Below, piece after piece: positions 28,572 to 62,356 of a stretch of 64,000 nt of DNA (the first letter of the stretch is position 1; each line of letters opens with the position of its first letter). Source of the stretch: Balanoglossus misakiensis (Eukaryota; Animalia; Hemichordata); assembly GCA_040954595.2 (NCBI GenBank), contig CM082589.2, forward strand, positions 2,483,175 to 2,547,174, read 5' to 3'. The notes below the pieces were generated by a model. That model did not search any database. It was not told the origin of the DNA and saw nothing but the letters and a program-made list of their open reading frames with translations. Position numbers and translations under genes: made by a program.

Positions 28572-28600
28572 GGTCTGTCTGTCTGTCTGTCTGTCTGTCA
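28572..28600. repeat. (CTGT)n microsatellite
   Basis: gtctgtctgtctgtctgtctgtctgtc. Confidence 0.8.
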
Positions 28601-35566: not shown

Positions 35567-36118
35567 ACCAAATTGCTCCATTAAGTAACTATAACATTAC
35601 TCACACCAATAAAAAAACATGTTTTCGGAGCACAGTCATGCACTAAGCAGAAAAATCTTTCCAAGGATACACAAGGACAAAGTAGTCTTTTTCTCTCAAA
35701 GTTGACTTTCTGATAAAATATTCAATATACACTCTATCTCATTTTCTGAATCAAAGTTTTGATATCTGATTTGTTTTCTTTCCTGGTATCACAACTTGCG
35801 TTATACTTCTGTGGGATTCAGACACTGTCACTAATTTTAATTTTTTCACGTCGATTATTACCATTTTATTTTTATCGCCAGAATAGGGGCTAGTGCGATT
35901 TTATAAATTGGCAGCATAGTCTGACTTACCAATCTCTAAAATATGAGATGTGTTTGTTGTAAGTTATTGTGGAACATATTCACAATTCTACACCAGTTTC
36001 TATTCATATTGTCCTTCATATTCAGTGACCCACTATAAGTGTGCAAGTATAGGTGAAACTCTCACCATTTCTTTGTTGTCTTTGTCATTGTCGTGATGCA
36101 CAACGATTACTGCTGTGT

Positions 36119-41732: not shown

Positions 41733-43888
41733 GCTTATAAAATGGCGTCAACCAACCATAACCATACTCATCTAATCACAATTTTTGTGCATTTTTGCTG
41801 CACCTGAAATAAAATTATACGCCATTTTGGTCAATAAGGACTGTTGAACTTTACAACAGAACAGGGCGGAGCATTAACACGTAAACATAGTCAATGATTT
41901 ATTGCATAGGTCTGGGACTAATTGGAGAAATGAAATAACAACATGTTCTTGTAAATATATAACGATGCAGATGGGGGGGGGGGGGGGGTGATGTTAGTCT
42001 AATGTAACTTCGTCGCCGCGAATGTGAAGATAGAAGGCCCGCAACATTACAAACTACAGTGTTCCGTATCAACCATAAAAATTTGATTGGTATCAAAATC
42101 ACTTATGTCCTGAACCCACAATATGAATGTTCAGAAAAATCTGTCTATAAATCATTGCTAACTGCCAATATTTTAAAGTCATATATCCAAACTTATATTG
42201 AAATCTATGTATCAGGCGGCTAGTATAGTCCTTGTCAACATGACAAAGACTATACTGTACAGCCATAGGCATGAGATACAAAACCAATTAAATCAACATC
42301 CACGATCTACATTACTTGTTTGTCTGATTCTAAATATACACCAGGTCGAAGTGTAGATTTAGCTTATATCCGCCGACAAACGTTTCTGTACGTTTATCAA
42401 CTTGTGGCGTACTGGGCAGGTCGCCAGCTTTGGCTCCAGAAGTCGATCGATTGGTGGGTCTCTCCTTATGTCTAAGGTAAAGTCAATAAATGTTAGCAGA
42501 CACTAGTACGCGTTGTTTTAGAACTTTATCAGTGAGACATGTCCTGACACAACAATGCATAGCTGAACTGCCAGTCTGCTGTTTGGCAACAGTGGAACTT
42601 GTATTAGACTAGCGGAGTAGGTTAAAATGGGCCACAATTTGAAACGGGGAGAGGTGTGGCGCAGAATTGTCTGTGTTCACACACACCTGTACGCAGAGCT
42701 ATAAGTAATGTGGTAGTAGCTTTGGCTTGTAAGTAGATGAGGAGTGTTTATTTTGTTTGGCAAATGAACTCAACTTCGAGGTTGGCGCCATTTTTAACGT
42801 TGGAAATAACTTTCGTCTATTCGTCTAATTACTGGCACAGGTCGCAGCACCCGAGCCTGCGCAGATTTACGGCACGCCGAAGCCTTGACACTCGGGAAAG
42901 ATTTTCTACCTTTGCTCTAATATCTGGGGTAGTTCGTCCTGTCATTGTTGTGTAGATTAGGTAAAGGTAACTATATTAAAATGTTGTGTGTTTAGATAAA
43001 AAGTGAAAACAAATAAACTTCTCCAAGTTAAAAGGGCGCGTTTACATCTTCGAAGTTTGTTGGCACATTTCTTCATAGTGTAAACATAGTGAATTATCAT
43101 GAATATGGGGACTGGGCAGTGGTCGGGGAGTCGATGCGTTCTCAAAGCGCCACCAATATAATGTCTATTCGAAAGTATGCGGTATGCAGTAGAGTATACG
43201 GTGAAAATCTAATAATGTGGTCAGAAACCGCACGACACTTTATCAGTGAGACATGTCCTGACACAAAAATGCATAGCTGAACTGCCAGTCCGCCGTTTGG
43301 CAACAGTGTAGAAAATAGTTAGAAAAATCTATCGGTGAGCATATCAAACAGTCGATATTACAAGATCATCTTGTCCTCGAACTTGAAAAGTCTCCAAGCA
43401 TGAATCTGTATGCAAATTTAACAAACTCCCGAAAAGATTATCATTCTTTCGCACAAACAGGAATTTTGTGTAACACGGTCAGCATCAGTACAGTACCACG
43501 TTACTCGAATTAGGGTCACAACATCCACAGGGGATGGGCGTTTTATGTGAACTATAAACTTGATTGAAATAGCTGACTAGCTGACACGAAAGTAACATAA
43601 ATGCCACCATATTATAAAAACACAGGAATTATAATCTATCAAGTTCAAATCTCTGTCAGGCATGAGACGTTTCCCAGTTTGTGATTTACAGGAAGTGAAT
43701 AACTCAGTCTTCAGTTTGATTGTTCACTCATGAGTTATTGTGGAACATTTGCACAATTTGACTCCAGTTTTTATGCCTATTGTCCTTCATATTCAGTGAC
43801 CACTATTTGTGTGCAAGTATAGGTGAAACCCTCACCATTTCTTTTTTGTCTTTGTCATTTTCGTGATGCACAACGTTTACAGAAGTGT

Positions 43889-46800
43889 TTATTGGGCAAA
43901 CACTTTAATGCAGTCATTGATGCAGTCAACTACAGCCACTCTGCATGGGACATCATTGGTCAGTGTGATACCATGTGGCCACTCAAGTCCATCCTCATCA
44001 CTGTCAATGCGAGATATGAATCTGCCTCTGCTGTCGAACTTCACCACGCGTTTGTTTCCTCTGTCACAGACATACACATATCCGTCTTCATCTGTCACCA
44101 CTCCCCTAGGGAATTTCAGGCTGACATCTGCGCTGATGTTGCGTAATGAGTACAAAAACTCACAATCTGCATTGAACACCTGAACACGGTTATTGTTTAT
44201 ATCTGATACAAATGCTTCTCCTCGACTGTTGATATCCACATATACAGGTCCGAAGAATTCTCCCTCTTCAGTGCCATGTTTTCCAAAGGATTTGATGTGC
44301 TGACCTTGCTGTGTGTATTTCCTGACACAGTAACTACCTTCCTTGTCTGTGTCATCACCCTTTCCATCATAGTCTGTGACATACACACTGCCATCTAGAG
44401 GACTGATACCAATTCCTTGGGCATATTTCAGTTCAGGTTTTCCGAAGTGTCTGAGTACTTGTCCATCCTCATCGCTTACAACTACTTGACTGTTGCCCCG
44501 ATCAGTCATGAAGTATTCATCATCAGCTGATACTGACACATCCTTTGGTTGAAAGGGCTTCTCAAACTGTGTGAATGTTAAACTTGATTTGTAATTTCCA
44601 TCTCTGTCGGCTATGTGTAGCCTATTGTTATCTCTATCAGCTGTAACAAAGTCGCCGTGTTTATTAGTAGTTATCCCTAATGGTCTGTCAAGCTGACCTT
44701 TGCCTATTATCTTCACCAAGCCCTTGACAGAAATTACAAATGGTGATCCTGGTATCGGCTGATCACCAAGGGTTATGGCGACTTCATGTCTACCACCGAC
44801 ATCTGCGTGAATTCTCACACTGTGTGTACCATCTCTGTTGTCAACCACTCCAACGTCTACTTGTGACCCATCTTCTTTACAGAACTTTGCTGTGATTGCT
44901 TTGTATGGAATGACTGGTTTTCCTCTTCTGTCTTCGATTCTGACAATGACGTCAGCAGACTCACCCCGGACGAGTCTTTTGGGAATATCCTCTACTCTAC
45001 ACTGGGATGCACTGATATCGAGTGTCAGAAATCCCAGCATTCCATGCTGCAGAGGGTCAGCAGAAGGATGGAATTTGATTAACTCGGATTTTATGAACTG
45101 ATTCACTTTATGAACAAATTCTTGAATGTGAAGCAGAGTTTGTTTCTTTGACGACATTAGGTGAGCAGAACTCCCATCATTCACCAGTGCGTCAATATAA
45201 TCGCATGCCTTGGAAATATTTCCATGTTTTTCTTCCCAATCATCTACTTCAGTTTCGATGGTGTGTCTGATCATCTTGTATCCAAGTTTCATCTCTTCAA
45301 CCAGTCTGAACTCTTCCCTCTTCACCATTTTTAGTATCTTCTTTGCTTTATTTCTCACTTTCTCCTCTTCCTCTTGACGATGTACTTCCAGGTCATCTTT
45401 GATACCCTCACCTCCAGTGTCACGTGACATGACGGCCTGTTCAGTTCCTCTCAACTTCACCACCATCTCTCTCAGTTGTTTTCTGTAATCATCAGCGGCA
45501 ACTTGTATCTGTCTGTGGACATGGTCAGGAATAGGATGTGCAGTGATACACTCAGGACAGATGCATACTTGACAGCTATCACAAAACAGATGTACTTCAT
45601 TCTGTGTGTGAAAGCTGCAGTACACTTGACTTTGTTGTGATTTCTGACTTGATATTTCTTTCAAGTATTTGTCAAGTGTGACGTCACTCTGACCTTTGAC
45701 TGCTTCTGTGTCCTCATGGACAGTTATACAGGAAGAACAAAACTTGGCACTGCACTCTCTGCATCTATGTAGCGATTCAGTTTCTTTGCAACCTTCACAT
45801 TGACCTATTTCTAAATCTTCGGTTTTCTCTGTTTCTTTTGCAAAACTCGCCTTTAAAGAAAAAGTTGTGAAAAATATATATTATTAAACAATTTAAGGGA
45901 CTGGTTTTCCTGATTAAAAATATTCTGACACTTTTTGGTATCATTGTCGAAGGCTTAAATTTATGAAAAAACGATCTCGAGAATCAAAGTATAATAAACA
46001 CGTGACAAAAGCAGTATATTATATGCTGTACGTTATTAAAACAGTTTACTTGAACATACATGTATAGTGATTTCAACCCGATGATGTTCACGTAATGTAC
46101 ACCAAACTTTATATTCCATTGGAAATGATTATCTGGGTATTAAATGTTTACTTACTGTTGAGGGCGCACCTCGTTTTGTTCTCTCACGAACTGCAATTTT
46201 TTCAGCTAGCTCTTTTTCAATCTGCAGTCGTTTGATTTCGGCTTGCTGAATTGATTCTGTCTGCTTCAGTTCAGCAATCTGTGCAGTGTTAATGTTGGCT
46301 TGCTTCTTGAGTTTTTCTAGCTGATCTTTGATTTCGTCTGTGTCTATTTCTAAGTCCTCAGTTTTGTGTGCTTCCTTTGCAATACTTGCCTATAAAGAAA
46401 ATATTGTGATATTTGTATTATTAAACAATTTAAAAGTATTGATGCCAATAAAATGTCTCTCTTTTGTGGCAACACGCTTGAAGATAATTAGTCAAGTAAA
46501 AAAAACACGACAAATAGTTGCATTTGATAGTAAAATTTGCAATGCATAAATGACAAAATACGGTTAGTGTCATTTCAGTAGTTTTTGTTTTGTGTATGAA
46601 CTAAAATACGCAATGAAACAGGGGTCACATAGCTTAAATTTAGTCAGTAAAGAAATGAAGTTTTCACCAATGGTTTTTCTATTGGCGAACACATTCAACA
46701 AAGTTTATCTCCTAATTGAGCACGGTGACTATATTATTTTTTTGACCAGTGAATTTAATTTCATTTGGAAGAACTATGACTAAAACTTCATGAAAATGAC

Positions 46801-49489
46801 AAAATCAGAAGCAATCAGACGATAAATATGTCTTAAAAAGCTTAAAAAGTGTGCACCTATACCTTAGCTTGGCGCCATGTTTTACTTTTAAATCCGTTAC
46901 TATTTTACATACCGTCAGTCGATTGATTTCTTCTTCACATTCTGCCTTTGTGATTCGAAGATCCTTAATCACATTTTGGTCTGCAGCATGCTTCAATGCC
47001 ACGAGTTTCACCACAGCTTTACTGTAATTTAGGGCCACCTACAAAATATACATAATACATGCACCCTTTTATCAGACTTTGCTCATGTCAAGAATATAAG
47101 ACTTGCAACAGGTTCGGATATAAATCGCTTGATTCTGTTGAGCGATAAATTTCTTCCACTCCATGGCGACACATCAGAGTCGAAATCGGTTGAACGGATG
47201 TAGGCCTTGGTCTACATTAAGAATGTCATTGTATGTATCGGTAAACTACATTTTTGTAAGTTGAGCGTCAACGTCTAATTCTTAAGTCTTTATAGACAGG
47301 TACATTACTACGATTGCATTCGGACTGGAATCCATATTATCATTAGTAAATAGTACTAGTCACAACCTAGGCGACTAAGGTCAACCTTATGACCCTGACA
47401 ACCCATGAATGTTGATAACATATCGTTGGGTCAAAGGTGATTATTGATATTCTGAAACTGACCCCACTTGAGTGATATGGGTCATGGATTCCCGAGTGGC
47501 CGAAAATATACTTTATAGAATAAACTTATAAAGGCATGGGAATCGCGTCAGTTGACTACGTGCACTTACCAAAGACGTCGACACAAGTTTCATTTTCATA
47601 TTTGCTGCATATTTCTGGTGCTCTGTCTTGAGTTCTGCTGCATATTTGGAAGATGTCTCCTTCTCTGTTTTGAGTTCCTTGATTCTGTGTTGTGATGCCT
47701 GGAGAAGAGACCTTCTGCCGAATTCTGATATTTCATTTAAAGTCGGCCAGACTGTTGACATCAAGTTCAGTACATCGATACAAGGAAATCTCAGTGTGAT
47801 GGACTGCAATCTTCTGTTTCTTGCGTTCTCTGTGTGTAAACAAAATATTTAAATATCGGGATGCACATATACCACAGCTACTATCACATTATACTCAGGG
47901 TACAGCAACAAGAAAATATAGCAAAATTAAATGGTGATATGGGAAATTATAAGCTATATTCGGGCAAAATTATTACTCGAATACGTGTGATGCCGCCAAC
48001 TGCATAAAGGTATACATTTCGTGATAAGCTGTTTTGATTACAGGCATACAACATCTCATTTTATGTAACGTCGATAAAATGCGTTTTAATTGATTACCTT
48101 TGAAATATTGTATTCCTATGTCCAACTGTAACTGGTCAACTTGAACAGCTATGTAGAATTCAACATTGGATGCTTTGTCTGCAATTAGTGCTTTGATTCT
48201 CGGTGATATCAGGATGTCACTCAATTCTTGCTCAACATCGCCATTTCTAAGTCCTTTTCTGAAGCACTGGATACCATATATCTCAAAAGCTCGAAGTGCT
48301 AGGATAACAGATGATATCTTTATCCCCATCAGCTCTATGCGATACTGTTTAAGGGCTTTATACATCGCCTTGGACTTGTCAGGACATTCTCCTTTCTTGA
48401 TTTCAGCGATTTCGTATTTGTATATCTCCTTTGCACTCTGGAATAATTCTAATTGTATCCATTGCTCTAATTGATCGCCGCGTTTTGCCAGATCTATGCT
48501 GACATCAAAATCTGAAATTGTAATGTTTTTGATGAGTTTCAATATACATGTATACAGAGTGAACTTTTAAAGTATGGACTAAAATCTAATTAATTATCTA
48601 TCAAAAGTCTCATGTTACTCAGTCTGGCTGTAAAATTCAATGACGCATTACTGATCAAATACCGACTGATTGCTAGATAAAAACACACAGAGAATAAGGA
48701 TGCGTTTACTGCTATTCGGGGATGAAGGAATGTCAATTACATTGTAACGGCTTACTAATTTTTGACCTCTCAATGCCCCAAATAATACAGAAGGTACTCA
48801 CCAACGTAGGGCTGCATTTCTGATCCTGGCAGGTCAGTGACACTTGATCGCCTTCTTCTTTGCCCTTAAGTAAAATAAAATGTAAAAATGCATTGATAAA
48901 ACTTACAAAGTATCGAAAACAGAGTTACTTGCCAATTTCTCCCGCTGATTTTCAAAACCGTTCCCCAAGTTTAAGTACAAGTACCTGACCAGTCCATAAA
49001 TAAATGCATCACCAAATACCCCACAGGCAGAGTAGAGGACAAGGTGTTATCCTTCTGTAGTAAAATCATTATTTTTTTAAACGGTAATAAAAGGGAAAGT
49101 TATTCACTTTTAAAATAGCTTGTATCTGTCCGTTTGAAGGAATCTGTAGCTGACGCCATAATGTGATTGTTATAATGAGGTTCAGTATCCGTAAAAGACT
49201 CACCTAATGCGTTCGATTGAAAAGTTTCCACTTTCTTCTTTAGCTCTGGGAGTTTTAAAAGTCCCATAAGATCAACCAATACCTCCACGTTCTCTTCGGA
49301 CACATGACCACTTTCTTCCAATTTCTCAAAAACGTCCATAGCAGTTTCGGTTTTCTCAACTTCGGTTTTGGTCAGTTGGTTCCCTCTGATTAGCGACTTC
49401 ATCAGCTTTACATTTTCCTTGCTTAGTTCTTGGTGTAAAGTTAGTAAGAGAATCCTGAGCGGCGGTATTTTGGTTGACCTAGTCTCCAT
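43889..49489 (-). CDS. DED - TRADD-N-like - TRIM-NHL chimera, copy 2
   Basis: Exons 49204-49489, 48802-48864, 48098-48511, 47570-47829, 46913-47038, 46156-46389 and 43889-45850. Exon sizes are identical to copy 1 and the frame is open upstream of the ORF-track start. Confidence 0.85.
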
Positions 49490-52339
49490 GCTTATAAAAT
49501 GGCGTCAACCAACCATAACCATACTCATCTAATCACAATTTTTGTGCATTTTTGCTGCACCTGAAATAAAATTATACGCCATTTTGGTCGATAAGGACTG
49601 TTGAACTTTACAACAGAACAGGGCGGGAGCATTAACACGTAAACATAGTCAATGATTTATCGCAAAGGTCTGGGACTAATTGGAGAAATGAAATAACAAC
49701 ACGTTCTTGTAAATATATAACGATGCAGATGGGGGTGGGGGGGTGATGTTAGTCTAATGTAACTTCGTCGCCGCGAATTTGAAGATAGAAGGCCCGCAAC
49801 ATTACAAACTAGTGTTCCGAATAAACCATTAAATTTTGATTGGTATCAAAATCACTTAAGTCCCGAATCCAGAATACATGAATGCTTCAGAAAAATCTGT
49901 CTATAAATCATTGCTAACTGCCAATATTTTAAAGTCATATATCCAAACTTATATTGGAATCTATGTATCAGACGGCTAGTATAGTCCTTGTCAACATGAC
50001 AAAGACTATACTGTACAGCCATAGGCATATCTACATTACTTGTTTGTCTGATTCTAAATGTACACCAGGTCGAAGTGTAGATTTAGTAACGAGCTTATTC
50101 GCCGACAAAGTTTATCAACTTGTGGCGTACTGGGCAGGTCGCCAGCTTTGGCTCCAGAAGTCGATAAATTGGTGGGTCTCTCCTTATGTCTAAGGTATTA
50201 TCAATAAATGTTAGCAGACACTAGTACGCGTTGCTTTATAACTTTATCAGTGAGACATGTCCTGACACAAAAATGCATAGCTGAACTGCCAGTCTGCCGG
50301 TTGGCAACAGTGGAACTTGTATTAGACTAGGGGAGTAGGTTAAAATGGGCCACAATTTGAAACGGGGAGAGGTGTGGCGCAGAATTGTCTGTGTTCACAC
50401 AGACCTGTACGCAGAGCTATAAGCAATGTAATAGTTGCTTTGGCTTGTAAGTAGATGAGGAGTGTTCATTTTGTTTGGCAAATGAACTCCAACTTCGAGG
50501 TTGGCGCCATTTTTAACGTTGGAAATAACTTTCGTCTATTCATCTAATTACTGGCACAGGTCGCAGCGCCCGAGCCTGCAGTATGCGCAGATTTACGGCA
50601 CGCCGAAGCCTTGACACTCGGGAAAGATTTTCTACCTTTGCTCTAATATCTGGGGTAGTTCGTCCTGTCATTGTTGTGTAGATTAGGTAAAGGTAACTAT
50701 ATTAAAATGTTGTGTGTTTAGATAAAAAGTGAAAATAAATAAACTCAGAATCTCCAAGTTAAAGGGGCGCGTGTAAGTCTTCGAAGTTTGTTGGAACACT
50801 TCTTCATAGTAACAGAGTGAATATGGGGACCGGACCGGGCAGTGGTCGGGGAGTCGATGCGTTCTCAAAGCGCCACCAATGTCTATTCCAAAGTATGCGG
50901 TATGCAGTAGAGTATGCGTTGAAAATCTAATAATGTGGTCAGAAACCGCACGACACTGAAATGTCCAATTACTCCACGGGAAGTCACTCTTGACCCAGTA
51001 GTGGAAAAACCGACCGTGTGTGCAACTTAAGAATTTCACAGCTGAAATCAAGTTCACCAACGTCGAGTCATTCATAGAAGGATACGAGAGAGATGAGACT
51101 GGAATTTCACTTCGCTTTTGTCACCGTTATTCTGTTGTTTCTCGTCCTTTTAGGTGAGTACAATAGAATTTCGTTGGGTATATTAGGAGAGTAAAATATT
51201 TGGCAAGAAGCATAAATTTCAAGCAATATTTCATAACTTTTTCCGCGCACATTTACAGGGTGGGTGTAGTCCCGTCTGCGGATATGCGTCCCCATACCAC
51301 ACAGTCGAGTGTCAAGTCAAACTATACAATGCGTTATTACTATTTATCACATTTCCAATTTACTTTGAAATGACATTTACATGTACGTTGACAGGGTCTC
51401 TCAATGCTGATGATGTGTTTATAAATGGAAAAGTCGCCCATGTGAAGTTCAGGCGACCATCTCCCTTTAAAGCGACCAGTCTGTCGTATCAGATCAAAAG
51501 TCACCAAGACTGCGCGTTTATTCCTTAGTAAACGCTCTGAGAAGTTACTCTTTTGATACATTCTGTTTTTTTGCGTTTGGTACATCAATCGGCACCAGTG
51601 CTAAAGAAAAACTGCATTAACACAAGCAAGCTTCTGAGTCATAACCTTCACACTGACTTCAATTAACTCACAAGTCAACATATGTTTTTGATGTCCTTAC
51701 ACTTCAGAAAGCACTGCCTTGGCCATTTGACTAAAAACAAAGTACTTAGAAAAATCTATCGGTGAGCATATCAAACAGTGATTACAAAATCATCTTGTCC
51801 TCGAACTTGAAAAGTCTCCAAGCATGAATTTAAATAAAACAAGAATATGTATGCAAATTTAACAAACTCCCGAAAAGATAATCATTCTTTCGCACAAACA
51901 GGAATTTTGTGTAACGCGGTCAGCATCAGTACAGTACCACGTTACTCAAATTAGGGTCACCACATCCACGGGAGATGGGCGTTTTATGTGAACTATAAAC
52001 TTGATTGAAATAGCTGACGACGGAGTAATTTCTGTCATGCAAGACGCACGAAAGTAACATAAATGCAACCACATTATAAAAAACAAAGGAATTATAATCT
52101 ATACCCCAAGTTCAAATCGCTGTCAGGCATGAAACGTTTCCCAGTTTGTGATTTATAGGAAGTGAATAACTCAGTCTTCAGTTTCATTGTTCCCTCGTGA
52201 GTTATTGTGGAACATTTTCACAATTTGACACCAGTTTCTATGCCTATTGTCCTTCATATTCATGACCCACTATTTGTGAAACTCTCACAATGTCTTTGAT
52301 TTTTGTCACTTTCAGGATACACAACTTTTGCTGCTGTGT

Positions 52340-55300
52340 TTATTGGGCAAACACTTTAATGCAGTCATTTTCATGGTCAACTACAGCCACTCTGCATGCC
52401 ACATCATTGGTCAGTGTGATACCAGCTGGCCACTCAAGTCCATCCTCATCACTGTCAATGCGAGATATGAATCTGCCTCTGCTGTCTAACTTCACCACGC
52501 GTTTGTTTCCTTTGTCACAGACATACACATATCCGTCTTTATCTGCCACTATTCCCCTTGGCCATTTCAGGCTGTCATCTGCGCTGATGTTTCCAAATGA
52601 GTATAAAAACTCACAGTCTGCACTGTAAACCTGAACACGGTAATTGTTCATATCTGATACAAATGCTTCTCCTCGACTGTTGATATCCACATATCCAGGT
52701 CCTTTGAATTCTCCCTCTTCAGTGCCATGCTTTCCAAAGGATTTGATGTGCTGACCTTGCTGTGTGTATTTCCTGACACAGTGACTACCTTCCTTGTCTG
52801 TGTCACCAGCCTTTCCATCCCAGTCTGTGACATACACACTGCCATCTAGAGGACTGATAGCAATTCCTTGGGCATATTTCAGTTCAGGTTTTCCGAAGTG
52901 CCTGAGTACTTGTCCATCCTCATCGCTTACAACTACTTGATTGTTGCCGTCATCTGTCATGAAGTATTCGTCATCAGCTGATACTGCCACTTTGTTTGGT
53001 AGAAAGGGCTTCTCAAACTGTGTGAACGTTAAACTTGATTTGTCATTTCCATCTCTGTCGGCTATGTATACCCTATTGTTACCCCAGTCAGCTGTAACAA
53101 AGTCGCCGTGTTTATTAGTAGTTATCCCTACTGGCCTTCTAAGCTGACCTTTGCCTATTACCTTCACCAAACCCTTGACAGAAATTACAAATGGTGATCC
53201 TGGTATCGGCTGATCACCAAGTGTTATGTTGACTTCATGTCTACCACCGACATCTGCGTGAATTCTCAGACTGTGTGTACCATCTCTGTTGTCAATAACT
53301 CCAATGTCTTTTTGTGACCCATCTTCTTTGCAGATCTTTGCTGTGATTGCTTTGTGTGGTGTGACTGGTTTCCCTCTTCTATCTTCGACTCTGACAATGA
53401 CGTCAGCAGACTCACCCCTGACGAGTCTTGTGGGAATATCCTCTACTCTACACTGGGATGCACTGATATCTAATGTCAGTAATCCCAGCATTCCATGCTG
53501 CAGAGGGTCAGCAGAAGGATGGAATTTGATTAACTCGGATTTTATGAACTGATTCACTTTATGAACAAATTCATGAATGTGAAGCAGAGTTTGTTTCTTT
53601 GATGACATTAGGTGAGCAGAACTCCCATCAATCACCAGTGCTTCCATGTAATCGCATGCCTTGGAAATATTTCCATGTTTTTCTTCCCAATCATCCACTT
53701 CAGTTTCGATGGTGTGTCTGATCATCTTGTATTCATCTTTCATCTCTTCAACCAGTCTGAACTCTTCCCTCTTCACCATTTTTATTATCTTCTTTGCTTT
53801 ATTTCTCACTTTCTCCTCTTCCTCTCGATGATGTACTTCCAGGTCATCTTTGATATCCTCACCTCCAGTGTCACGTGACATGACGGCCTTTTCAGTTCCT
53901 CTCAACTTCGCCACCATCTCTCTCAGTTGTTTTCTGTAATCATCAGCGACATCGTGTATCTGTCTGTGGACATGGTCAGGAATAGGATGTGCAGTGATAC
54001 ACTCAGGACAGATGCATAGTTGACAGCTATCACAAAACAGATTTACTTCATTCTGTGTGTGAACGCTGCAGTATGCTTGACTTTGTTGTGATTGCTGACT
54101 TGATATTTCTTTCAAATATTTGTCGAGTGTGACGTCACTCTGACCTTTGACTGCTTCAGTGTCCTCGTGGACAGTTATACAGGAAGAACAAAACTTGGCA
54201 TTGCACTCTCTGCATCCATGTAGCGATTCAGTTTCTTTGCAACCTTCACATTGACCTATTTCTAAATCTTCGGTTTTCTCTGTTTCTTTTGCAAAACTCG
54301 CCTTTAAAGAAAAAGTTGTGAAAAATATATATTATTAAACAATTTAAGGGAGTGGTATTCCTGATTAAAAATATTCATGACACTTTTTGGTATCATTGTC
54401 GAAGGATTAAACTTATGAAAAACGATCTCGAGAATCAAAGTATAATAAACACGTGACAAAAGCAGTATATTATATGCTGTATGTTATTAAAACAGTTTAC
54501 TTGAACATACATGTATAGTGATTTCAACCCGATGATGTTCACGTAATGTACACCAAACTTTATATTCCACTGGAAATGGTTATCTGGGTATTAAATGTTT
54601 ACTTACTGTTGAGGGCGCACCTTGTTTTGTTCTCTCACGAACTGCAATTTTTTCAGCTAGCTCTTTTTCAACCTGCAGTCGTTTGATCTCGGCTTGCTGC
54701 ATTGATTCTGTCAGCTTCAGATCAGCAATCTCTGCAGTGTAAATGTTGGCTTGCTTCTTGAGTTTCTCTAGCTGATCTTTGACTTCGTCTGTGTCTATGT
54801 CTAAGTCCTCAGTTTTGTGTGCTTCCTGTGCAATAATTGCCTATAAAGAAAAGATTGTGATATTTGTATTATTAAACAATTTAAAAGTATTCATGCCAAT
54901 AAAATGTTTCTCTTTTGTGGCAACACGCTTGAAAATTATTAAAGTAAATAATGTTTTTTCTATCGGTGAACACATTCACCAAAGTTTATCTCCTAATTGA
55001 GCACGGTGACCATATGATTTTTTGGACCAGTGAATTTAATTTCATGGGAAGAACTATGAGTATAACTTCATAAAAAGACAAAATAAGAAGCTTTCTGGCA
55101 TTTCTCAATTTAATCCCATTGGCTTACATATGACCGTCCCGTGTTTCGATTTTTCAATCAGACGATAAATATGTCTTTAAAAGCTTAAAAGTGTGCACCT
55201 ATACCTTAGCTTGGTGCCAAGTTTTACTTTTAAATCCGTGGCTATTTTACATACCGTCAGTCGATTGATTTCTTCTTCACATTCTGCCTTTGTGATTCGA

Positions 55301-58054
55301 AGATCCTTAATCACATTTTGGTCTGCAGCATGCTTCAATGCCACGAGTTTCACTACAGCTTTACTGTAATTTAGAGCCACCTACAAAATATACATAATAC
55401 ATGCACCCTTTTATCAGACATTGCTCATGTCAAGAATCAAGACTTGCAACAGGTTCGGATATTAATCGCTTGATTCTGTTGAGCGAAAAATTTCTTCCAC
55501 TCCATGGCGACACATCAGAGTCGAAATCGGTTGAACGGATGTAGGCCATGGTCTACATTAAGAATATGTCATTGTATGTATCGGTAAACTACATTTTGGT
55601 AAGTTGAGCGTCAAAGTGTAATTGATAAGTCTTTATAGACAGGTACATTACTACGATGGCATTCGGACTGGAGTCCATATTGTCATTAGTGAATAGTACT
55701 AGTCACAACCTAGGCGACTAAGGTCAACCTTATGACCCTGACAACCCATGAATGTTGATAACATATCGTTGGGTCAAAGGTGACTGTTGATATTCTGAAA
55801 CTGACTCACCTGCGTGTAGGGATCGTGGAATACCGAGTGGTCGAAAATATGCATTATAGAATTAAACATTGGTGAGGGGGGGGGGGGGGGGGGGGTCGTG
55901 AATCGTGTCAATTTACTTCGTGCACTTACCAGAGACATCGACACAAGTTTCATTTTCATATTTGCTGCATATTTGGAAGATGTCTCGTTGTCTGTTTTGA
56001 GTTCTTTGATTCTGTTCTGGTGCTCTGCTTTGAGTTCTTTGATTCTGTGTTGTGATGCCTGGAGAAGAGACCTTCTGCCGAATTCTGATATTTCATTTAT
56101 AGTCGGCCAGATTGTTGACATCAAGTTCAGTACATCGATACAAGGAAATCTCAGTGTGATGGACTGCAATCTTCTGTTTCTTGCGTTCTCTGTGTACACA
56201 CATAGCGATGTATTAGTCATAATAATGTTAAGCAACACGTTTGGCTCACGTGAAGTTTGGGCCTCTGTGGTTATATTTAATTCATTACAAGGCTGTCATC
56301 TTTAACGAGGCATATCTTACCATTTCTGTCAAGCATACATGAATAATATTGCTAGATGAGTTATGTATTAAACAGAACAGTGTCACTGACATGTTTGAAT
56401 GTTACAATAGTATTCAGCACTTCAGGAAAACACACCTTGCACGATCTTGGACAAACTCGCTATAATTTACAAGTCGATTCACTTGACGCTTAGTTTTGTC
56501 TGTTTGCGCTATATATATGTTTGACTCTAAGGAAAATAATGCAAAAGACGAATATCCTATTTTCAATTGCCCTTTACGACGGTTTAAGGCATCAAAAATA
56601 TCAGCAGAAAAGTTTAGGTCTATGGTATTTGTTTCCATGCACTTACCTTCAAAGTATTCCATGCCCCTTTCTAATTCAGCGTGGTCAACCAGTGCAGCTA
56701 TTTCTAACAGCCCCTCTCTTTTCACAAGCATCTTCATACTATTGGAAATAAGTATGTCGGAAAGCAGGCGCTCCAGATCACCACAGTCCAGCCCTTTTTT
56801 GAAACACTGTATGTTACTCCGACTGAAGGTTCGCAAAATCAGAATAACGGACGACATCTGGATACGTATTAACTTGGCTTGGTAACGGTCAAAGGCCTTG
56901 TCGAGTAATTTCGATTTGTCTGGATTATTGCCATTCTTAATTTCTTCCACCTCAACTTCAAATATCTTCTTCGCGGCTTCATATAAATGGGCTTCTATCT
57001 GTTGTTTTTGTTGGATTTGAAGTTCTAGCCGGAAATCTGTAAAAAAATACACAAAGGCGATTAAATTGTATAATCTGTTACTGGTATCACACTTCAAAAT
57101 ATTTGTTGAAAAAGTCTACTTTCTTCAACCAATAAGCAATCGGTATAAATAATGATACGTTCTAAAATATCGGATCCGGTCACGCTATCTCGGCTATTAA
57201 AGTTGATTTTCTAATGACTCAGCAAAAGTATACCATTGCCAGTGATGGAGGAAATGAATAGCATTCGTTTCGCACTGGCGGAAGCTGACAATGCATGGGG
57301 TCGTAAAGGGTTCAGGCAGTCAAATAGTGAAGTACGCTTTTCACTTTAATGGAACTGTCTGGGCTTCGCGAACCGGGCCAGCACACACAACAACATCGTC
57401 TATATGCACTCAGAACCACTTGATCATTAAAGGCGTTGGTCGTACGTGAATTAACGCCACCAAATGCACTTGCAAATTTAACCACAGTTACCTTGGAACT
57501 TACCCCAATAGGGACTAGCCTTGTCCATTTCTTGTCCAGGACGATCAGCATCACTGTAACGCCGTCGTTTCTCTACTAAAGAAAACAGAACATGCATTGT
57601 GATTAATTAAACATGTATTGAAAATGCATGAAAATATCCGTTTTCATTTTAAAAATAACGGCTGGAATTGTTCTTAAAAACGGAAAAAAAATATTCAGGA
57701 CAAACAACATGTACCCTGTGCTGGCCTCCAGTCAAAGGGTTATAAATAGAACTGTCACTCACCTACAGCTACCGCACCAGATTGAAAATTTTCAACTTTT
57801 TCCTTTAGCCGTGGACGCTTCAAATGATCCATTAATTCGATGACTAGTCCAAGATTAGTTGCAGATATATATCCACGTGTTTCCAAATGTACGAATAGGC
57901 TCATTGCAGTTTTCGTCTTCTCTGCGTCTTCTTCGCTTAACTGGCGACCGTAAAGTAGGAGTTTCATCGTAGATACTTCTTCGCCGCTAAGTTCGCTCTG
58001 TAATGCTAGAAAAAGTGACCTCAATGGGCAAACGTTGGTCACACTCACTTCCAT
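52340..58054 (-). CDS. DED - TRADD-N-like - TRIM-NHL chimera, copy 3, with divergent N-terminal exons
   Basis: Exons 57763-58054, 57504-57575, 56647-57036, 55930-56189, 55255-55380, 54607-54840 and 52340-54301. The DED exon reads MEVSVTNVCPLRSLFLALQSELSGEEVSTMKLLL...AMSLFVHLETRGYISATNLGLVIELMDHLKRPRLKEKV. Intron phases match copies 1 and 2. Confidence 0.83.
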
Positions 58055-60860
58055 GGTTAAATCGCTGTCTTCCAATCTTTAACTACACTATGGGAAAGCG
58101 ACAATTTCTATTTTTAGAGGGAATACGTTAAACATGCCCCGACACAAACGGCCGCCATTTTGTTTTCTGGTCTCTTTTACAGTTCAAAATAGTAGGACAA
58201 CAGCCCTGCGTGATTTATGGAACATGGTACATGCCTGGGGCCGGGGTAAACAGAAACATGGCGGCCATTCGTATCCTGCCAAATCGCGTTATAAAACTGG
58301 TTTGCTGTTTACACGTGTATACAGGGTGCCCAAACTCAAGTCCGTTAATCAGTCAAGTGCGTGTAACGCTGAAGGGCCTACATATAATGCGGCCCTGGAC
58401 CCGTTTTTACTATGACATCCATTTCACGGGTGTCATAATGCAAACCGAGTAAACATGAAGTCCAGCAGGGCGGTACAATAGTCGGGAGGAGTCGATGCGT
58501 TCTCAAAGCGCCACCAATGTCTATTCCAAAGTATGCGGTATGCAGTAGAGTATGCGTTGAAAATCTAATAATGTGGTCAGAAACCGCACGACACTGAAAT
58601 GTCCAATTACTCCACGGGAAGTCACTCTTGACCCAGTAGTGGAAAAAACAGACCGTGTGTGCAACTTGAGAATTTCACAGCTGAAATCAAGTTCACCAAC
58701 GTCATTCATAGAGGGATACAAAAGAGATGAGATTGGAATTTCACTTCGCTTTTGTCACCGTTATTCTGCTGTTTTCGATTCTTTTAGGTGAGTACATTAG
58801 GGTTTCGTTGGGCATATTAGGAGAGTAAAATATTTGGCGAAAAGCATAAATTTCAAAGAATATTTCATAACTTTTTCCGTGCACATTTACAGCCTGAGGG
58901 TGGGTGTGTTCCCGTCTGCGGGTATGCGTCCCATAAACACACAGTCGAGTGTCAAGTCAAACTATACAATGCGTTATTACTATTTATCACATTTCCAATT
59001 TACTTTGAAATAACATTTACATGAACGTTGACAGGGTCTCTCAATGCTGATGGTATGTTTAATGGAAAAGTCGCCCATTTGCAGTTCTGGCGACCATCTC
59101 CCTTTAAAGCGACCGGTCTGTCGTATCAGATCAAAAGTCACCAAGACTACGCGTTTACTCCTCAGTAAACGCTCTGAGAAGTTACTCTTTCGATACATTC
59201 TGTTTTTGCGTTTGGTACATCAATCGGCACAAGTGCTGAAGAAAAACTGCACAACACAAGCAAACTTCTGAGTCATGACCTTCACAACTTCAATTAAACA
59301 ACAGGTCAACATATGTTTTTGATGTCCTCACACTTCAGAAAGCACTGCCTTGGCCATTTGACTAAAAACAAAGTACTTAGAAAAATCTATCGGTGAGCAT
59401 ATCAAACAGTGATTACAAGATCATCTTGTCCTCGAACTTGAAAAGTCTTCAAGCATGAATTTAAATAAAACAAGAATCTGTATGCAAATTTAACAAACTC
59501 CCGAAAAGATTATCATTCTTTCGCACAAACAGGAATTTTGTGTAACACGGTCAGCATCAGTACAGTACCACGCTACTCGAATTAGGGTCACCACATCCAC
59601 GGGAGATGGGCCTTTTATGTGAACTATAAACTTGATTGAAATAGCTGACGAGGGAGCAATATATTTCTGTCATGCAAGACGCACGAAAGTAACATAAATG
59701 CAACCATCTTATAAAAACGAAGGAATTATAATCTATACCCCAAGTTCAAATCGCTGTCAGGAATGAGACGTTTCCCAGTTTGTGATTTATAGGAAGTTAA
59801 TAACTCAGTCTTCAGTTTCATTGTTCCCTTATCTCTAATTGGTATGAGTTCGGCGCCGCCTTTCACACGTTAGTCTAACGCATTCCAAGTTGTTCGCATA
59901 CCTCGAGAAATAAGTTTTAACGAGTACTCGCAAATGTAAGGCACGACGTTCAGCCACAGGAAAACGTGTGTAAGCTCACGAATTCCTGACGATCGCTTAA
60001 AGTTCAAGAATACTGGGATCCATGCCTTCGACCATTGACAATGATCATAACACCAAGTCCCTCCAAAACAGACCTACTAATTTGCTTGACAGAAGTTACC
60101 AGTCCATAACATTATCCACATACAAGTTCACTCGAAGTTGAAAAGCAAAAACACAGTGAAACACGATCGCATTCTGGTATTCGCAATTTCCCTCCAGATA
60201 TAGACGTAGTCATGCTTTCCGACATACCAGGTTCTCATTGCTACATACATACGTGTAGCCGTAATTTCACAGAATGTCCTCACGTTTACGACCGACAGCT
60301 GAAAGTCTTCCCCTAATTCTTTGCTATGTCACCCATTTGACAATTTGTTACGTACATGACTGTTACTCAAGTTGGTCTATACTAAGATATAATCAATATT
60401 CAAATGAAATACGTTAGTTCATGTGCTTCGAAAAATGGAGAGGTTTGTCGCGATTATTTTACTCCGGCAATATGTGACGTGAATGAACGTACAGAATCGT
60501 AACTTTATGTCTTTGCGACAGATGGTTTTGTATGACGCAGAAACCTGACCTCGAATCGACAGCGAGACATGTTTATTGGGAACTTCATAAATTTGTAGAC
60601 AAATGGCAAGGCCTTAGAAATGCTTATGTTGACTTTCTTCACACGAGATATCCCGCAGGGAGAAGCAATCTTGAACCGACTCCCTGAACTGAATGGTGAC
60701 CATGAACTTAAATTCTAGGTCATGTTTTCACAGTCTCAATATCAAGGTTGTTATTTTCATGAGGTCAGGTGGAATGTTGTGGTGGTGACGACGGCGATGA
60801 TGATGATTTGAACATATGCATGGTATGTGAATGAAAATCAACTTGCATTGTCTGGCAGCC

Positions 60861-62356
60861 ATGCTCATTACTAAGATCAAAGCACATCAGTACGGGAATA
60901 CATCTCACGTCAACGTGTTTAGGAATGAGAGTATCTTAACATCTATTTTGTGTTTTTCTGCTTTGTCTGCTTTCACAGGCGTCGCCGAAGGAAGCAATGG
61001 CGGTCTCTCAAATGATAACGGCAATGATCAATTAAGGCGTAAATTATTACAATACTACGATCGCAGAAAGTTACCTCATAAGCCACAGGTGGATATCACG
61101 GTGTCTATCCAGTTGGTCACAGCGGAAGTTGTAAGTGTTGTTTGTTTGATAATTTTTGTCGTTTGGGGGGGACACTAAAATATCACGTATTATACGAAAG
61201 GGAAGCGTTGGACCATTCACAATACAGCATCAACGTCGATGCATTTTGCTTCATTAAGACTTTTCAATTTCTTGTGAACATATTAACGTGTTCTATTTAA
61301 TTATCCATAAAAGTCATAATTATCATTATAATTTTGTTTGATTTCAGAACACGGAGACGAACATTCTGATTGCGGAGCATCGAAGGCTATACGTAAGTGT
61401 TGCTATTAAACCATCCACATCCCGTCCATCATCAATCGATTCATTTTCCGTCAACCAACCCACTGAGTCACTCACATATTCACTCACTCACTTGGTCGAT
61501 CGATCGATCGATCAGTCAGTCAAACTACAACCCGGGACGTTTTCTGACATTGTTACACTGACTCTTCTTATGGAATCGCATCATTCCAGCTAGCAAATGT
61601 TATTTTTTAACACAACAGAAATGGTATGACAACAGACTCGTCTGGGATACACCAAACAAGCGATCGAGTCAAGTGTCAATCTTGGCTGTCTCGCCGGAGT
61701 CTATCTGGAGTTTCCTGCGCTACGAACAACTTGTAAATGGGTTAGTTCATTTCTCATTACTCATCTGCTGAACATGGCGACGAAAAGAATTTCGCCTCAG
61801 CCATGTGAACGACCAAATTTCTTAATGCTATGAACCAATATCTGAATGAACGACTTCATAACAACTCATGCAGATATGTCTTTTACTCGACAGTACTTTA
61901 CGGAAACCAGTGAACGCAACACGTCACGAGGAATCACCCACAGCATTGGTGACGTCAGAGGGTCTGGTCGAGCTCGTGACACCTCGGGTCGTCACGGAGA
62001 CGCCCTGTTTGCAGCACGCCCTCTCAAACGACACTTACACATGCGAGATAACGCTCTCCAATTGGCGATACCCGTCAACCAAGCTGAGGCTACAGTTTCC
62101 CCCAAACAGGGTGCCCGTGGATTTGCACTCTTTCATGACGGAAGAGTGGGAAGTTGCGGAAGCCACGGGCAAGATCTTCGACAGAAAGAGCGACAGCAAG
62201 TTAACCGACACGGTGTCGTCGGTCACATTTGAAATCGTTCTCCAAGAAGCAGACGTGTCCCTGTCTCATCTTAAGAACACTGCGACCAACCTTTTGCCAA
62301 CGACTTACATGTTCATGCTGTGTGCAGGACATATTTTTCTTCTTACTACTATGTAG
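60861..62356 (+). CDS. Cys-loop (nicotinic-type) ligand-binding-domain-only protein, AChBP-like, with a single hydrophobic C-terminal tail; exons ?-61130, 61348-61392, 61619-61740, 61894-62356 (5' start uncertain)
   Basis: Signal-like SILTSILCFSALSAFTGVAEG, then helix DQLRRKLLQYYDRRKLP. A 45-nt exon typical of nAChR genes follows, then KWYDNRLVWD...PESIW, ALVTSEGLV, the Cys loop C-LQHALSNDTYT-C, loop B SNWRY, EEWEV and VTFEIVL. The stop comes after one hydrophobic segment. Confidence 0.72.
61497..61513. repeat. (GATC)n short palindromic microsatellite in an intron
   Basis: cgatcgatcgatcgatc. Confidence 0.6.

What the first reader, a model, noticed from the sequence alone, without database searches (positions are those of the whole stretch)
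56195..58481. Effector-cassette swap: copy 3 has a different DED + linker + TRADD-N-like module inside an otherwise near-identical unit
Seen: copy 3 aligns closely with copy 2 up to the exon 4 acceptor (~56195) and again from ~58481 (gtcgg...gagtcgatgcgttctcaaagcg). The ~2.3 kb in between has unalignable introns and only moderately similar proteins, yet keeps the same three exons and phases. It corresponds to ~3.0 kb in copy 2 (~47835-50844). Inference: a gene-conversion or double-crossover event exchanged the whole signalling module plus its proximal upstream region with an older paralog. Sensor and effector halves would then be shuffled combinatorially.
Basis: partly seen in the sequence, partly recalled or inferred. 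Interest (0 to 1): 0.72.

Follow-up and report, generated by a model that had tools for sequence, protein, structure and literature searches.

The report
Swapped signalling cassette in tandem immune-type genes
Three neighbouring acorn-worm genes for a likely immune sensor are near-copies of each other, except that the third carries a very old, different version of its signalling front end between two razor-sharp borders. This was most likely put there by recombination with another family member, which makes it a clean but ordinary example of how such gene families mix their parts.

Summary
The window holds three tandem, intact, 7-exon genes on the minus strand (DED, linker, TRADD-N-like module, coiled coil, B-box, filamin, NHL). 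The closest database relatives are hemichordate proteins (Ptychodera flava, 68-69% identity).

Copy 3 is 92-93% identical to copy 2 on both sides of 56190-58480. Inside that segment the introns and upstream DNA cannot be aligned. Ungapped identity there is 46/150 and 35/150, against 148/150 and 150/150 just outside. The three exons keep the same phases but are only 47% identical in protein, and dS is saturated (dS is 0.09-0.10 in the NHL exon). Short-read contigs bridge both borders.

Exon 3 has a TRADD-N fold (Z 8.6 to 1f3v). It is homologous to Saccoglossus proteins that Kaur et al. 2021 list as DEDD2-clade TRADD-N.

A recombination mosaic is the best reading (0.6). No donor could be found because no genome is held. 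The direction of the exchange is open. The tree-incongruence test was inconclusive (AU p = 0.22). Homogenisation of everything except the cassette between old paralogs remains a rival (0.25).

A new point: copies 1 and 2 share a separate near-identical tract (2 differences in 1,899 bp) over the same cassette.

This is a known kind of process acting on a known architecture. Interest is moderate.

The parts
56190..58480 (-). Divergent cassette segment of copy 3 (K3). It holds 426 bp of upstream DNA, exons 1-3 and introns 1-3.
   Evidence: It does not align to copies 1 or 2. The borders were measured.
57763..58054 (-). Copy 3 exon 1, encoding a death effector domain. It starts at the ATG and ends in phase 1.
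   Evidence: Pfam DED: E 4.2e-15, 56.2 bits against a cut-off of 35.9. Gene model.
57504..57575 (-). Copy 3 exon 2, a basic linker of 72 nt (phase 1 to 1).
   Evidence: Splice sites. The copy 2 counterpart is 63 nt at 48802-48864.
56647..57036 (-). Copy 3 exon 3, a TRADD-N-like domain (DEDD2 clade in the sense of Kaur et al. 2021).
   Evidence: AF2 model with pLDDT 91. VIA-align Z 8.6 to TRADD-N chain 1f3v_A. HMMER hits to P0121 and P0123, which are XP_006811155.1 and LOC102805649. Both are listed as TRADDN-DEDD2 in the paper's supplement.
55930..56189 (-). Copy 3 exon 4. Its first 150 bp (56040-56189) are nearly identical in all three copies and form the lower border of the cassette.
   Evidence: 148/150 bases match copy 2 and 147/150 match copy 1. 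The 3' half contains a repeat-length variant.
52340..55380 (-). Copy 3 exons 5-7 (55380-55255, 54840-54607, 54301-52340): coiled coil, B-box, filamin and NHL propeller.
   Evidence: Pfam NHL 2.2e-19, Filamin 1.1e-13, zf-B_box 1.3e-5. 93-94% nucleotide identity to copies 1 and 2.
58489..58647 (.). Upper flank: 159 bp perfectly identical between copy 3 and copy 2 immediately outside the cassette.
   Evidence: The repeat unit as a whole is only 93% identical here.
47830..50844 (-). Cassette segment of copy 2 (K2). Exons at 49489-49204, 48864-48802 and 48511-48098, plus 1355 bp of upstream DNA.
   Evidence: DED E 7.3e-14.
40073..43120 (-). Cassette segment of copy 1 (K1), of the same type as K2.
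47691..49589 (.). Near-identity tract between copy 2 and copy 1 (39934-41832). It runs from mid exon 4 to about 100 bp upstream of the ATG.
   Evidence: There are 2 substitutions in 1,899 bp, against roughly 1 per 35 bp in the flanks. The 100-bp windows read 1.00.
35959..59829 (-). The whole array of three tandem units. Gene 1 spans 36119-41732, gene 2 spans 43889-49489 and gene 3 spans 52340-58054.

Best explanation
The third of three tandem DED / TRADD-N-like / B-box / filamin / NHL genes carries, between two sharp borders, a front-end cassette whose DNA does not align with that of its two neighbours. This mosaic was most likely made by non-allelic homologous recombination (gene conversion or a double crossover) with a diverged family member after the tandem duplication.

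Shown directly:
- the three intact genes;
- the two borders;
- the conserved exon number and phases;
- saturated divergence inside the cassette against about 7% outside it;
- a second, independent near-identity tract between copies 1 and 2 over the same cassette.

Inferred:
- The exchange was anchored in the conserved first 150 bp of exon 4 and in a conserved stretch about 430 bp upstream of the ATG.
- Homology-dependent conversion among the copies continues up to these anchors and stops where homology ends. This would keep the borders sharp.
- Which copy received the foreign cassette is not known.

Predicted function, untested:
- The NHL/filamin part would bind a ligand.
- The B-box and coiled coil would oligomerise the protein.
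- The DED plus TRADD-N dyad would recruit DED-bearing caspases or adaptors and TRAF-type partners.
- Swapping the cassette would therefore re-wire the output of the same sensor.
For: - Borders: 148/150 against 46/150 matches at the lower border and 150/150 against 35/150 at the upper border (alignments).
- Non-coding DNA inside the segment does not align, while other introns and spacers of the unit are about 90-98% identical in 100-bp windows. In-situ fast evolution therefore cannot explain it.
- Cassette exons have dN 0.47 and saturated dS. Exon 7 has dS 0.086-0.105.
- Protein path lengths: copy 3 to copy 2 is 1.66 in the cassette but 0.13 in exon 7. Copy 3 to P. flava P0003 is 1.81 and about 0.82. 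The two cassettes are thus as far apart as those of paralogs from another species, about 5-6 times more than co-divergence predicts.
- Exon 3 of copy 3 is closer to P0003 (53-54%) than to copy 2 (46%).
- Intron positions and phases are the same. This is homologous DNA with its introns, not a cDNA insertion.
- The repeat unit includes spacer DNA with a copy of a neighbouring gene's putative first exon. This points to a true segmental duplication that would at first have copied the cassette too.
- Copies 1 and 2 show a second exchange over the same interval: 2 differences in 1,899 bp.
- Both borders are bridged by contigs built from reads.
Against: - No donor was found, and none could be sought, because no genome is held.
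- Protein searches gave no closer relative of the copy 3 cassette than P0003 at 54%.
- A single clade of the three window cassettes is not rejected (AU p = 0.223), and the exon-3 tree is unresolved.
- The 1528-bp contig over the copy 3 cassette sits at the same depth as other unique stretches (29.2 in X1). No near-identical donor is evident in that sample.
- The flanks next to both borders are more alike between copies 2 and 3 (100% and 98.7%) than the unit average of 92-93%. A simple import into copy 3 does not predict this. It needs later local conversion, or it fits the rival reading.
- No RNA data were found, so expression and splicing of copy 3 are untested.
Confidence: 0.6

Rival explanations
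1. The genes are old tandem paralogs that always had different cassettes. Concerted evolution (repeated gene conversion or unequal crossover) has homogenised everything else: exons 4-7, their introns and the spacers. The cassette of copy 3 escaped because it is too diverged to pair. In this reading the remainder was overwritten, not the cassette.
For: - Site patterns in the shared part are a patchwork with no clear tree. Copy 1, 2 or 3 is the odd one out in similar numbers, and there is a run of 18 sites where copy 1 is odd. This shows ongoing conversion.
- The flanks abutting both borders are 98.7-100% identical between copies 2 and 3, above the unit average. This is expected if conversion tracts run up to the limit of homology.
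- The cassette tree does not reject any arrangement.
Against: - It needs homogenisation on both sides of the cassette, about 4.0 kb and 1.35 kb, including spacer DNA. Between paralogs with saturated dS that spacer DNA would have had no homology left to start conversion.
- The spacer carries a duplicated copy of a neighbouring gene's putative first exon. This is better explained by a segmental duplication of the whole unit.
- Upstream of the near-identity tract, copies 1 and 2 share the same cassette type at ordinary divergence of about 4%. Cassettes therefore are copied along with the unit.
Confidence: 0.25
2. Assembly artefact: copy 3 is a chimera in which the cassette of another family member or haplotype was joined into a collapsed repeat.
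For: - The flanks are multi-copy repeats, where assemblers err.
- Contigs built from reads break at 58472 and 58488, next to the border.
- A variant cassette like copy 3's exists in the same sample. One contig covers 56051-56403 with 9 differences and 7 gaps and then continues unlike the window.
Against: - Contigs bridge both borders with 31 or more letters on each side: 56051-56403 in X2 and 58443-58515 in X1 and X2.
- A 1528-bp contig matches the cassette with 0 differences.
- The gene reads through both junctions with intact splice sites and frame.
- These runs may come from the sample that was assembled, so they check the assembler, not the biology.
Confidence: 0.05
3. Rapid divergence in place: the cassette of copy 3 evolved very fast under positive selection after duplication.
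For: Immune-type adaptor domains can evolve fast. dN/dS in the NHL exon is already high at 0.51-0.70.
Against: - Introns 1-3 and 426 bp of upstream DNA do not align either and differ in length (187/467/457 nt against 339/290/268 nt).
- Introns 4-6 are about 90-98% identical.
- The change occurs within a few bases at both borders.
- Synonymous sites are saturated.
Confidence: 0.02
4. Insertion mediated by a transposon or by reverse transcription, the route Kaur et al. 2021 proposed for new TRADD-N fusions, brought in the cassette.
For: The paper reports associations of DEDD2-clade TRADD-N genes with retrotransposons. The stretch just outside the upper border has high summed depth in read contigs, as a dispersed repeat would.
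Against: - The cassette keeps three introns at the same positions and phases as its neighbours, so it is not a cDNA copy.
- No direct or inverted terminal repeats flank it. Only short, weak repeats were found.
- It replaces a homologous segment rather than adding one.
Confidence: 0.03

Closest known systems
DEDD2-clade TRADD-N lineage-specific expansions with a 'constant' DED plus TRADD-N dyad and variable C-terminal regions (Kaur, Iyer, Burroughs, Aravind 2021, eLife, PMC8195603)
   Same: An N-terminal DED is followed by a TRADD-N-like domain and then a variable sensor-like region. [quoted passage not shown] Two of the ten HMMER hits of exon 3 belong to Saccoglossus genes listed there as TRADDN-DEDD2. 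Three other hits have the GT4 / TRADD-N / LRR architecture that the paper describes for hemichordates.
   Different: Among the 24 of 35 hemichordate places I saw in the supplement, no filamin/propeller architecture is listed for Saccoglossus. The paper proposes retrotransposition as the source of new combinations. Here the exchange is of genomic DNA with its introns between paralogs. Pfam's TRADD_N and TRADD-like_N models do not hit these sequences.
TRIM-NHL proteins (TRIM2, TRIM3, TRIM71 type)
   Same: B-box, coiled coil, filamin repeat and NHL propeller appear in the same order. The nearest database proteins are named TRIM2-, TRIM3- or TRIM71-like.
   Different: No RING finger was found in the six exons scanned (1, 3-7; the 24-codon exon 2 was not scanned). 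The RING position is taken by DED plus TRADD-N, so E3 ligase activity is not expected from this protein itself. The RING-bearing hemichordate relatives form a separate clade (100* support).
Exon-level gene conversion and domain exchange in clustered innate-immune gene families (for example zebrafish NLR genes, bioRxiv 10.1101/027151; mammalian PYHIN cluster, PMC3458909)
   Same: Tandem or clustered paralogs have effector and sensor parts with different histories. The mosaics have sharp borders, and homogenisation is ongoing.
   Different: This case involves a different protein family and phylum. I saw only the search listing and the start of the abstracts of these two papers, so the comparison rests on that and on general knowledge.

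Membership tests
Death effector domain (Pfam PF01335) | Profile match above the curated cut-off | tested here: met
   Copy 3 exon 1 scores 56.2 bits (E 4.2e-15). Copy 2 exon 1 scores 52.2 bits (E 7.3e-14). The cut-off is 35.9.
TRADD-N domain (Pfam PF09034 / PF20694; DEDD2 clade of Kaur et al. 2021) | Match to the Pfam TRADD_N or TRADD-like_N profile | tested here: not met
   No hit at E up to 1 for exon 3 of copies 3 and 2. No hit at E up to 10 for any of the 12 members of alignment A1.
TRADD-N domain (Pfam PF09034 / PF20694; DEDD2 clade of Kaur et al. 2021) | RRM-like alpha+beta sandwich fold of TRADD-N | tested here: met
   The copy 3 exon 3 model has pLDDT 91.1 and pTM 0.83. VIA-align puts 1f3v_A first (Z 8.6, rmsd 3.1, 106 residues aligned) and 1f2h second (Z 7.0); the next family scores 6.2. 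Foldseek ranks 1f3v_A first but weakly (E 0.028). For the copy 2 model (pLDDT 84.1), 1f3v_A is only rank 31 (E 0.47), behind other RRM-like folds. Both models have the same order of strands and helices.
TRADD-N domain (Pfam PF09034 / PF20694; DEDD2 clade of Kaur et al. 2021) | Sequence homology to proteins that the defining paper lists in the clade | tested here: met
   HMMER hits are P0121 (E 9.2e-10) and P0123 (E 2.1e-7). P0121 is XP_006811155.1. P0123 belongs to LOC102805649. Both genes are listed as TRADDN-DEDD2 in Figure 4-source data 1. Atlas feature search: 15 of 30 nearest clusters belong to a set carrying PF20694 on 14-23% of members (a lead only).
TRADD-N domain (Pfam PF09034 / PF20694; DEDD2 clade of Kaur et al. 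2021) | Binding of a TRAF MATH domain or another partner | not testable with these tools
   No binding test was run.
TRIM (tripartite motif) family | N-terminal RING finger | tested here: not met
   No RING family appears among the Pfam hits of exons 1, 3, 4 and 7 or exons 5 and 6. Exon 2 (24 codons) was not scanned.
TRIM (tripartite motif) family | B-box followed by coiled coil and a C-terminal filamin-NHL module | tested here: met
   zf-B_box 1.3e-5, Filamin 1.1e-13, NHL 2.2e-19. The coiled coil was not tested by a program.
Non-allelic gene-conversion or double-crossover mosaic | Two sharp breakpoints with highly similar flanks | tested here: met
Non-allelic gene-conversion or double-crossover mosaic | Phylogenetic incongruence between the segment and its flanks | tested here: inconclusive
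   Exon 7: the three copies form one clade (100*) with path lengths of 0.12-0.14. Cassette: the best tree puts copy 3 with P. flava sequences at support of only 62/48. A single clade of the three copies is not rejected (AU p = 0.223). Branch lengths are strongly discordant.
Non-allelic gene-conversion or double-crossover mosaic | An identified donor sequence | not testable with these tools
   No genome is held. The window has no fourth copy. Read contigs hint at a further cassette like copy 3's in the sample.

The most novel reading that the evidence does not exclude
The cassette is a dedicated exchange unit. The nearly invariant first 150 bp of exon 4 and the perfectly conserved 159 bp upstream act as fixed recombination anchors shared by many family members across the genome. 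Whole DED / TRADD-N output modules, each with its own promoter-proximal DNA, would then be repeatedly moved between NHL sensors. This would be a germline mix-and-match system for immune wiring in an invertebrate deuterostome. It works on intron-bearing DNA rather than through the retrotransposition proposed so far.
Probability: 0.15. Interest if true: 0.7.

Novelty: new member of a known kind. Interest (0 to 1): 0.4.

Why it matters
Large invertebrate families of death-fold / TRADD-N proteins are thought to pair a constant signalling dyad with variable sensors. How new pairings arise is largely inferred from catalogues of domain architecture.

This locus gives a dated, base-pair-resolved example. 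The signalling dyad was exchanged as a block of genomic DNA between paralogs, and the sensor half stayed in place. A second exchange over the same block lies next door. If the pattern is general in the family, homologous recombination anchored in conserved exons would be a main source of architectural diversity, alongside retrotransposition.

As a single case without a donor or expression data, it is a tidy illustration and not a surprise.

Tried and rejected
- **Own-genome search for the donor:** not possible, because no genome is held.
- **Word-index protein searches:** exon 3 of copy 3 against longer proteins gave 630 candidates and none significant. The N-terminal 290 residues of P0003 returned only P0003 itself. 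Neither search gave a closer relative of the cassette.
- **Full HMMER search of 1.84 billion representatives with exon 3 of copy 3:** only 10 hits at E up to 0.001. The best was P0003 at 54%. The protein library therefore holds no near-identical donor, and the window's species seems absent from it (best NHL hit 69%).
- **Profile search of solved structures with alignment A1:** only LRR proteins matched, through the long rows of the alignment. This is uninformative for exon 3.
- **Rfam over 35-64 kb:** no family found.
- **Repeat scan of 56100-58700:** only short, weak repeats, and none flanking the cassette.
- **RNA evidence:** no RNA holder was listed among the sequencing runs, so expression and splicing are untested.
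- **Read contigs:** X3 laid nothing. Parts of 56488-56709 had no cover in X1 or X2.
- **Earlier findings of this scan:** none by place, sequence or words.
- **Depth as copy number:** summed contig depths near the borders are several times the single-copy level. The tool warns that these are not copy numbers, so I use them only as a hint that further family members exist.
- **Rejected readings:** fast evolution in place and a cDNA or transposon insertion (see the rival explanations).


Full report
**What is there**

The window is eukaryotic, and no genome is held for it. Self-BLAST shows three tandem units between 35959 and 59829.

Each unit carries one gene on the minus strand. I built the three models from open frames and splice sites. 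Each has 7 exons, 18 of 18 introns are GT-AG, and all three frames are intact (1114, 1114 and 1111 aa).

| Exon | Content | Evidence |
|---|---|---|
| 1 | Death effector domain | Pfam E 4.2e-15 (copy 3) and 7.3e-14 (copy 2), |
| 2 | Short basic linker | |
| 3 | Module of about 130-137 aa with no Pfam hit | |
| 4-6 | No Pfam hit; helical or coiled-coil by eye | |
| 7 | B-box, filamin repeat and NHL repeats | |

No RING finger was found in the six exons scanned (1 and 3-7); the 24-codon exon 2 was not scanned. The nearest database proteins to exon 7 are hemichordate proteins. Ptychodera flava is at 68-69%, with Glandiceps and Saccoglossus lower. In all, 120 proteins had E up to 0.001. The organism is therefore an acorn worm related to Ptychodera but not in the protein library. 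P. flava protein P0003 (1046 aa) has the same full architecture, including the DED.

**The observation**

Copy 3 aligns with copy 2 at 90-93% up to 56195 and again from 58481. Nothing aligns between those points, and the counterpart in copy 2 is 47835-50845.

In 100-bp windows, identity falls from 0.98 to 0.33 at the lower border and rises from 0.26 to 0.96 at the upper border. Base-level counts are:

| Border | Side | Matches |
|---|---|---|
| Lower | Exon-4 side (56040-56189) | 148 of 150 |
| Lower | Intron-3 side, ungapped | 46 of 150 |
| Upper | Right of 58489 (perfect run of 159 bp) | 150 of 150 |
| Upper | Left of 58489 | 35 of 150 |

Homology begins 6 bases before the exon-4 acceptor.

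Inside the segment, the three exons have the same order and all end in phase 1. Their sizes differ (292/72/390 nt against 286/63/414 nt), and so do the introns (187/467/457 nt against 339/290/268 nt, from the coordinates). The upstream DNA within the segment is 426 bp against 1355 bp.

The cassette proteins are 47% identical and the nucleotides 55.5%. dN is 0.47 and dS is saturated. Exon 7 has dS 0.086-0.105 and dN 0.053-0.064.

**Is it an assembly error?**

One search found three runs of one sample and one study, kept as contigs.
- A 1528-bp contig is identical to 56945-58472.
- A 378-bp contig spans the lower border (56051-56403, with 9 other letters and 7 gaps).
- 73-bp contigs in two runs span the upper border (58443-58515, 1 other letter).

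The runs may come from the sample that was assembled, so this checks the assembler only. An artefact is unlikely but is not excluded without long reads.

**What exon 3 is**

Pfam's TRADD_N and TRADD-like_N models do not hit it, nor any of the 12 sequences of alignment A1.

A full HMMER search of 1.84 billion representatives gave 10 hits. These were P0003 (E 2.9e-24), two Saccoglossus proteins, and P. flava proteins. Three of the hits have a GT4 'conflict' glycosyltransferase before the module and LRRs after it, and two have a DED.

P0121 is XP_006811155.1, and P0123 belongs to LOC102805649. Both genes are listed as 'TRADDN-DEDD2' in Figure 4-source data 1 of Kaur et al. 2021 (PMC8195603; supplement searched). 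The GT4 / TRADD-N / LRR pattern is described there for hemichordates (section 11 read in full).

An AlphaFold2 model of the copy 3 module (pLDDT 91.1) has TRADD-N as its best structural match. VIA-align gives Z 8.6 with rmsd 3.1 over 106 residues for 1f3v_A, 7.0 for 1f2h, and 6.2 for the next family. The Foldseek match is first-ranked but weak (E 0.028).

The copy 2 model (pLDDT 84.1) has the same order of strands and helices. It ranks TRADD-N only 31st, behind other RRM-like folds. An Atlas feature search points the same way (a lead only).

I accept 'TRADD-N-like, DEDD2 clade', with the caveat that the Pfam profiles fail.

**How old the two cassettes are relative to each other**

In exon 7, the three copies form one clade (100*) with path lengths of 0.12-0.14. 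They are 0.46-0.53 from P. flava P0001 and P0002 and about 0.82 from P0003. This tree has 13 rows: the 3 window copies, 4 P. flava proteins of the RING-less clade, and 6 RING-bearing outgroups picked from the 120 hits.

In the cassette, copy 3 is 1.66 from copies 1 and 2, 1.81 from P0003 and 1.83 from the DED of P0021. This tree has 8 rows. The six rows of the GT4/LRR-type clade (P0122, P0124, P0125, P0127, P0128, P0129) were left out as too distant.

The two cassette types in the window are therefore as far apart as paralogs from another species. This is some 5-6 times more than their sensor halves predict.

The topology is not resolved. The exon-3 tree is a polytomy of copy 3, P0003 and copies 1/2 (all 10 hits plus 3 copies). 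The best cassette tree puts copy 3 with the P. flava sequences at only 62/48 support. A single clade of the three window cassettes is not rejected (AU p = 0.223).

**A second exchange**

Copies 1 and 2 differ at about 1 site in 35 along most of the unit. They show only 2 substitutions in 1,899 bp between 39934 and 41832 (47691-49589 in copy 2). This stretch runs from the middle of exon 4 to about 100 bp upstream of the ATG. It is a recent conversion tract over nearly the same interval as the divergent segment of copy 3.

Further upstream, still within the cassette segment, copies 1 and 2 are again about 4% apart. Both therefore had this cassette type since they split.

In the shared part, the site patterns of the three copies are a patchwork, which indicates ongoing short conversions.

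The first 150 bp of exon 4 are nearly identical in all three copies. The DNA just 3' of it varies in repeat length and is only about 71-77% identical between copy 3 and the others.

**Mechanism**

The best reading (0.6) has two steps. First, a segmental duplication made the three units. Second, a non-reciprocal exchange with a diverged family member replaced the cassette in one lineage. That lineage is either copy 3 or the ancestor of copies 1 and 2.

The duplication step is supported by the spacer between copies 2 and 3. It carries a copy of what looks like a first, signal-peptide exon of the plus-strand ligand-gated channel gene that lies after copy 3.

The exchange would have been anchored in exon 4 and in the conserved stretch starting at 58481-58489. 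Later local conversions run up to the anchors and stop. This would explain why the flanks next to the borders are more alike than the unit average.

The main rival (0.25) is the reverse history: old paralogs whose remainder was homogenised. It fits the very similar flanks and the patchwork. However, it needs conversion of long spacer DNA that old paralogs would no longer share.

In-place fast evolution and a cDNA or transposon insertion are contradicted by the non-coding DNA and by the retained introns.

**Hints of further copies**

One contig of 3856 bp shares 58429-58472 with copy 3 and then continues with sequence that is not in the window. The contig spanning the lower border is a variant of copy 3's intron 3. 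After 56403 it continues with sequence not in the window at up to 3 mismatches.

These may be the other haplotype or further family members, and they are the first place to look for a donor.

**Function (inferred, untested)**

By analogy with TRIM-NHL proteins and with the model of Kaur et al. 2021:
- the filamin/NHL part would be the ligand-binding end;
- the B-box and coiled coil would be the oligomerising part;
- the DED plus TRADD-N dyad would be the output that recruits death-fold and TRAF-type partners.

A cassette swap would then change the output and the promoter-proximal control of an otherwise unchanged sensor. dN/dS of 0.51-0.70 in exon 7 fits a sensor under relaxed or diversifying selection.

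**Novelty**

The architecture is catalogued. [quoted passage not shown] It was not among the 24 of 35 hemichordate places I saw. Supplementary file 13 was not searched.

Mosaic immune genes made by conversion are well known in other families. For those I saw only a search listing and the start of the abstracts. Two literature searches found no report of such an exchange in TRADD-N or TRIM-NHL arrays of hemichordates, but this is a narrow search.

I rate it a new member of a known kind, with moderate interest.

Noticed in passing
window 39934-41832 and 47691-49589: Copies 1 and 2 are almost identical here (2 substitutions in 1,899 bp), but 3-6% apart elsewhere. This is a recent conversion tract covering exons 1-3 and half of exon 4.
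   Followed up: yes
window 58727-58787 (+), with a copy near 51090 (+): A short open frame starts with ATG, reads like a signal peptide (MRLEFHFAFVTVILLFSILL) and ends at a GTGAGT donor. It may be exon 1 of the plus-strand gene downstream. It is duplicated with the repeat unit and is missing between copies 1 and 2, where about 780 bp are absent.
   Followed up: partly
window 60831-62356 (+): Open frames of a Cys-loop ligand-gated ion channel (Neur_chan_LBD, E 4.5e-6) lie just beyond the array.
   Followed up: partly
window 55990-56050 and 47620-47700: The 3' half of exon 4 holds a short repeated coding motif (RIKELK... / ...SSKYAA...). Its arrangement differs between copy 3 and copies 1/2, although exon length stays at 260 nt.
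   Followed up: no
window 55875-55895: A run of about 20 C (minus strand) lies in intron 4 of copy 3 only. This is a likely spot for sequencing or assembly slips.
   Followed up: no
window 52340-54301, 43889-45850, 36119-38080: The NHL-bearing last exons have dN/dS of 0.51-0.70 between copies. This is high for a folded propeller and hints at diversifying or relaxed selection.
   Followed up: partly
window 54790-54840 and 54250-54301: Exon 6 and exon 7 begin with similar peptides (AIIAQEAHKTEDLDID and ASFAKETEKTEDLEIG), as if from an old internal duplication.
   Followed up: no
window 58141-58161 and 58255-58275; also about 49505-49515: An inverted pair of GCGGCCGCCATTTT-like motifs lies upstream of copy 3's ATG. 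A GACGCCATTTT motif lies just before copy 2's ATG. From memory, these resemble YY1-type core promoter motifs. This was not tested.
   Followed up: no
window 22669-31922 and 14977-22130: A cluster of five sulfotransferase-like open frames (Sulfotransfer_1, E 2.2e-16 for one of them) sits next to three related O-fucosyltransferase-like frames. These are further tandem families in the same window.
   Followed up: partly
window 56051-56403 and 58429-58472 (contigs of runs X1 and X2): Read contigs show a variant of copy 3's intron 3 / exon 4 junction. A second contig shares 44 bp of copy 3's upstream DNA and then differs. Neither continuation is in the window. They could be the other haplotype or extra family members.
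   Followed up: partly
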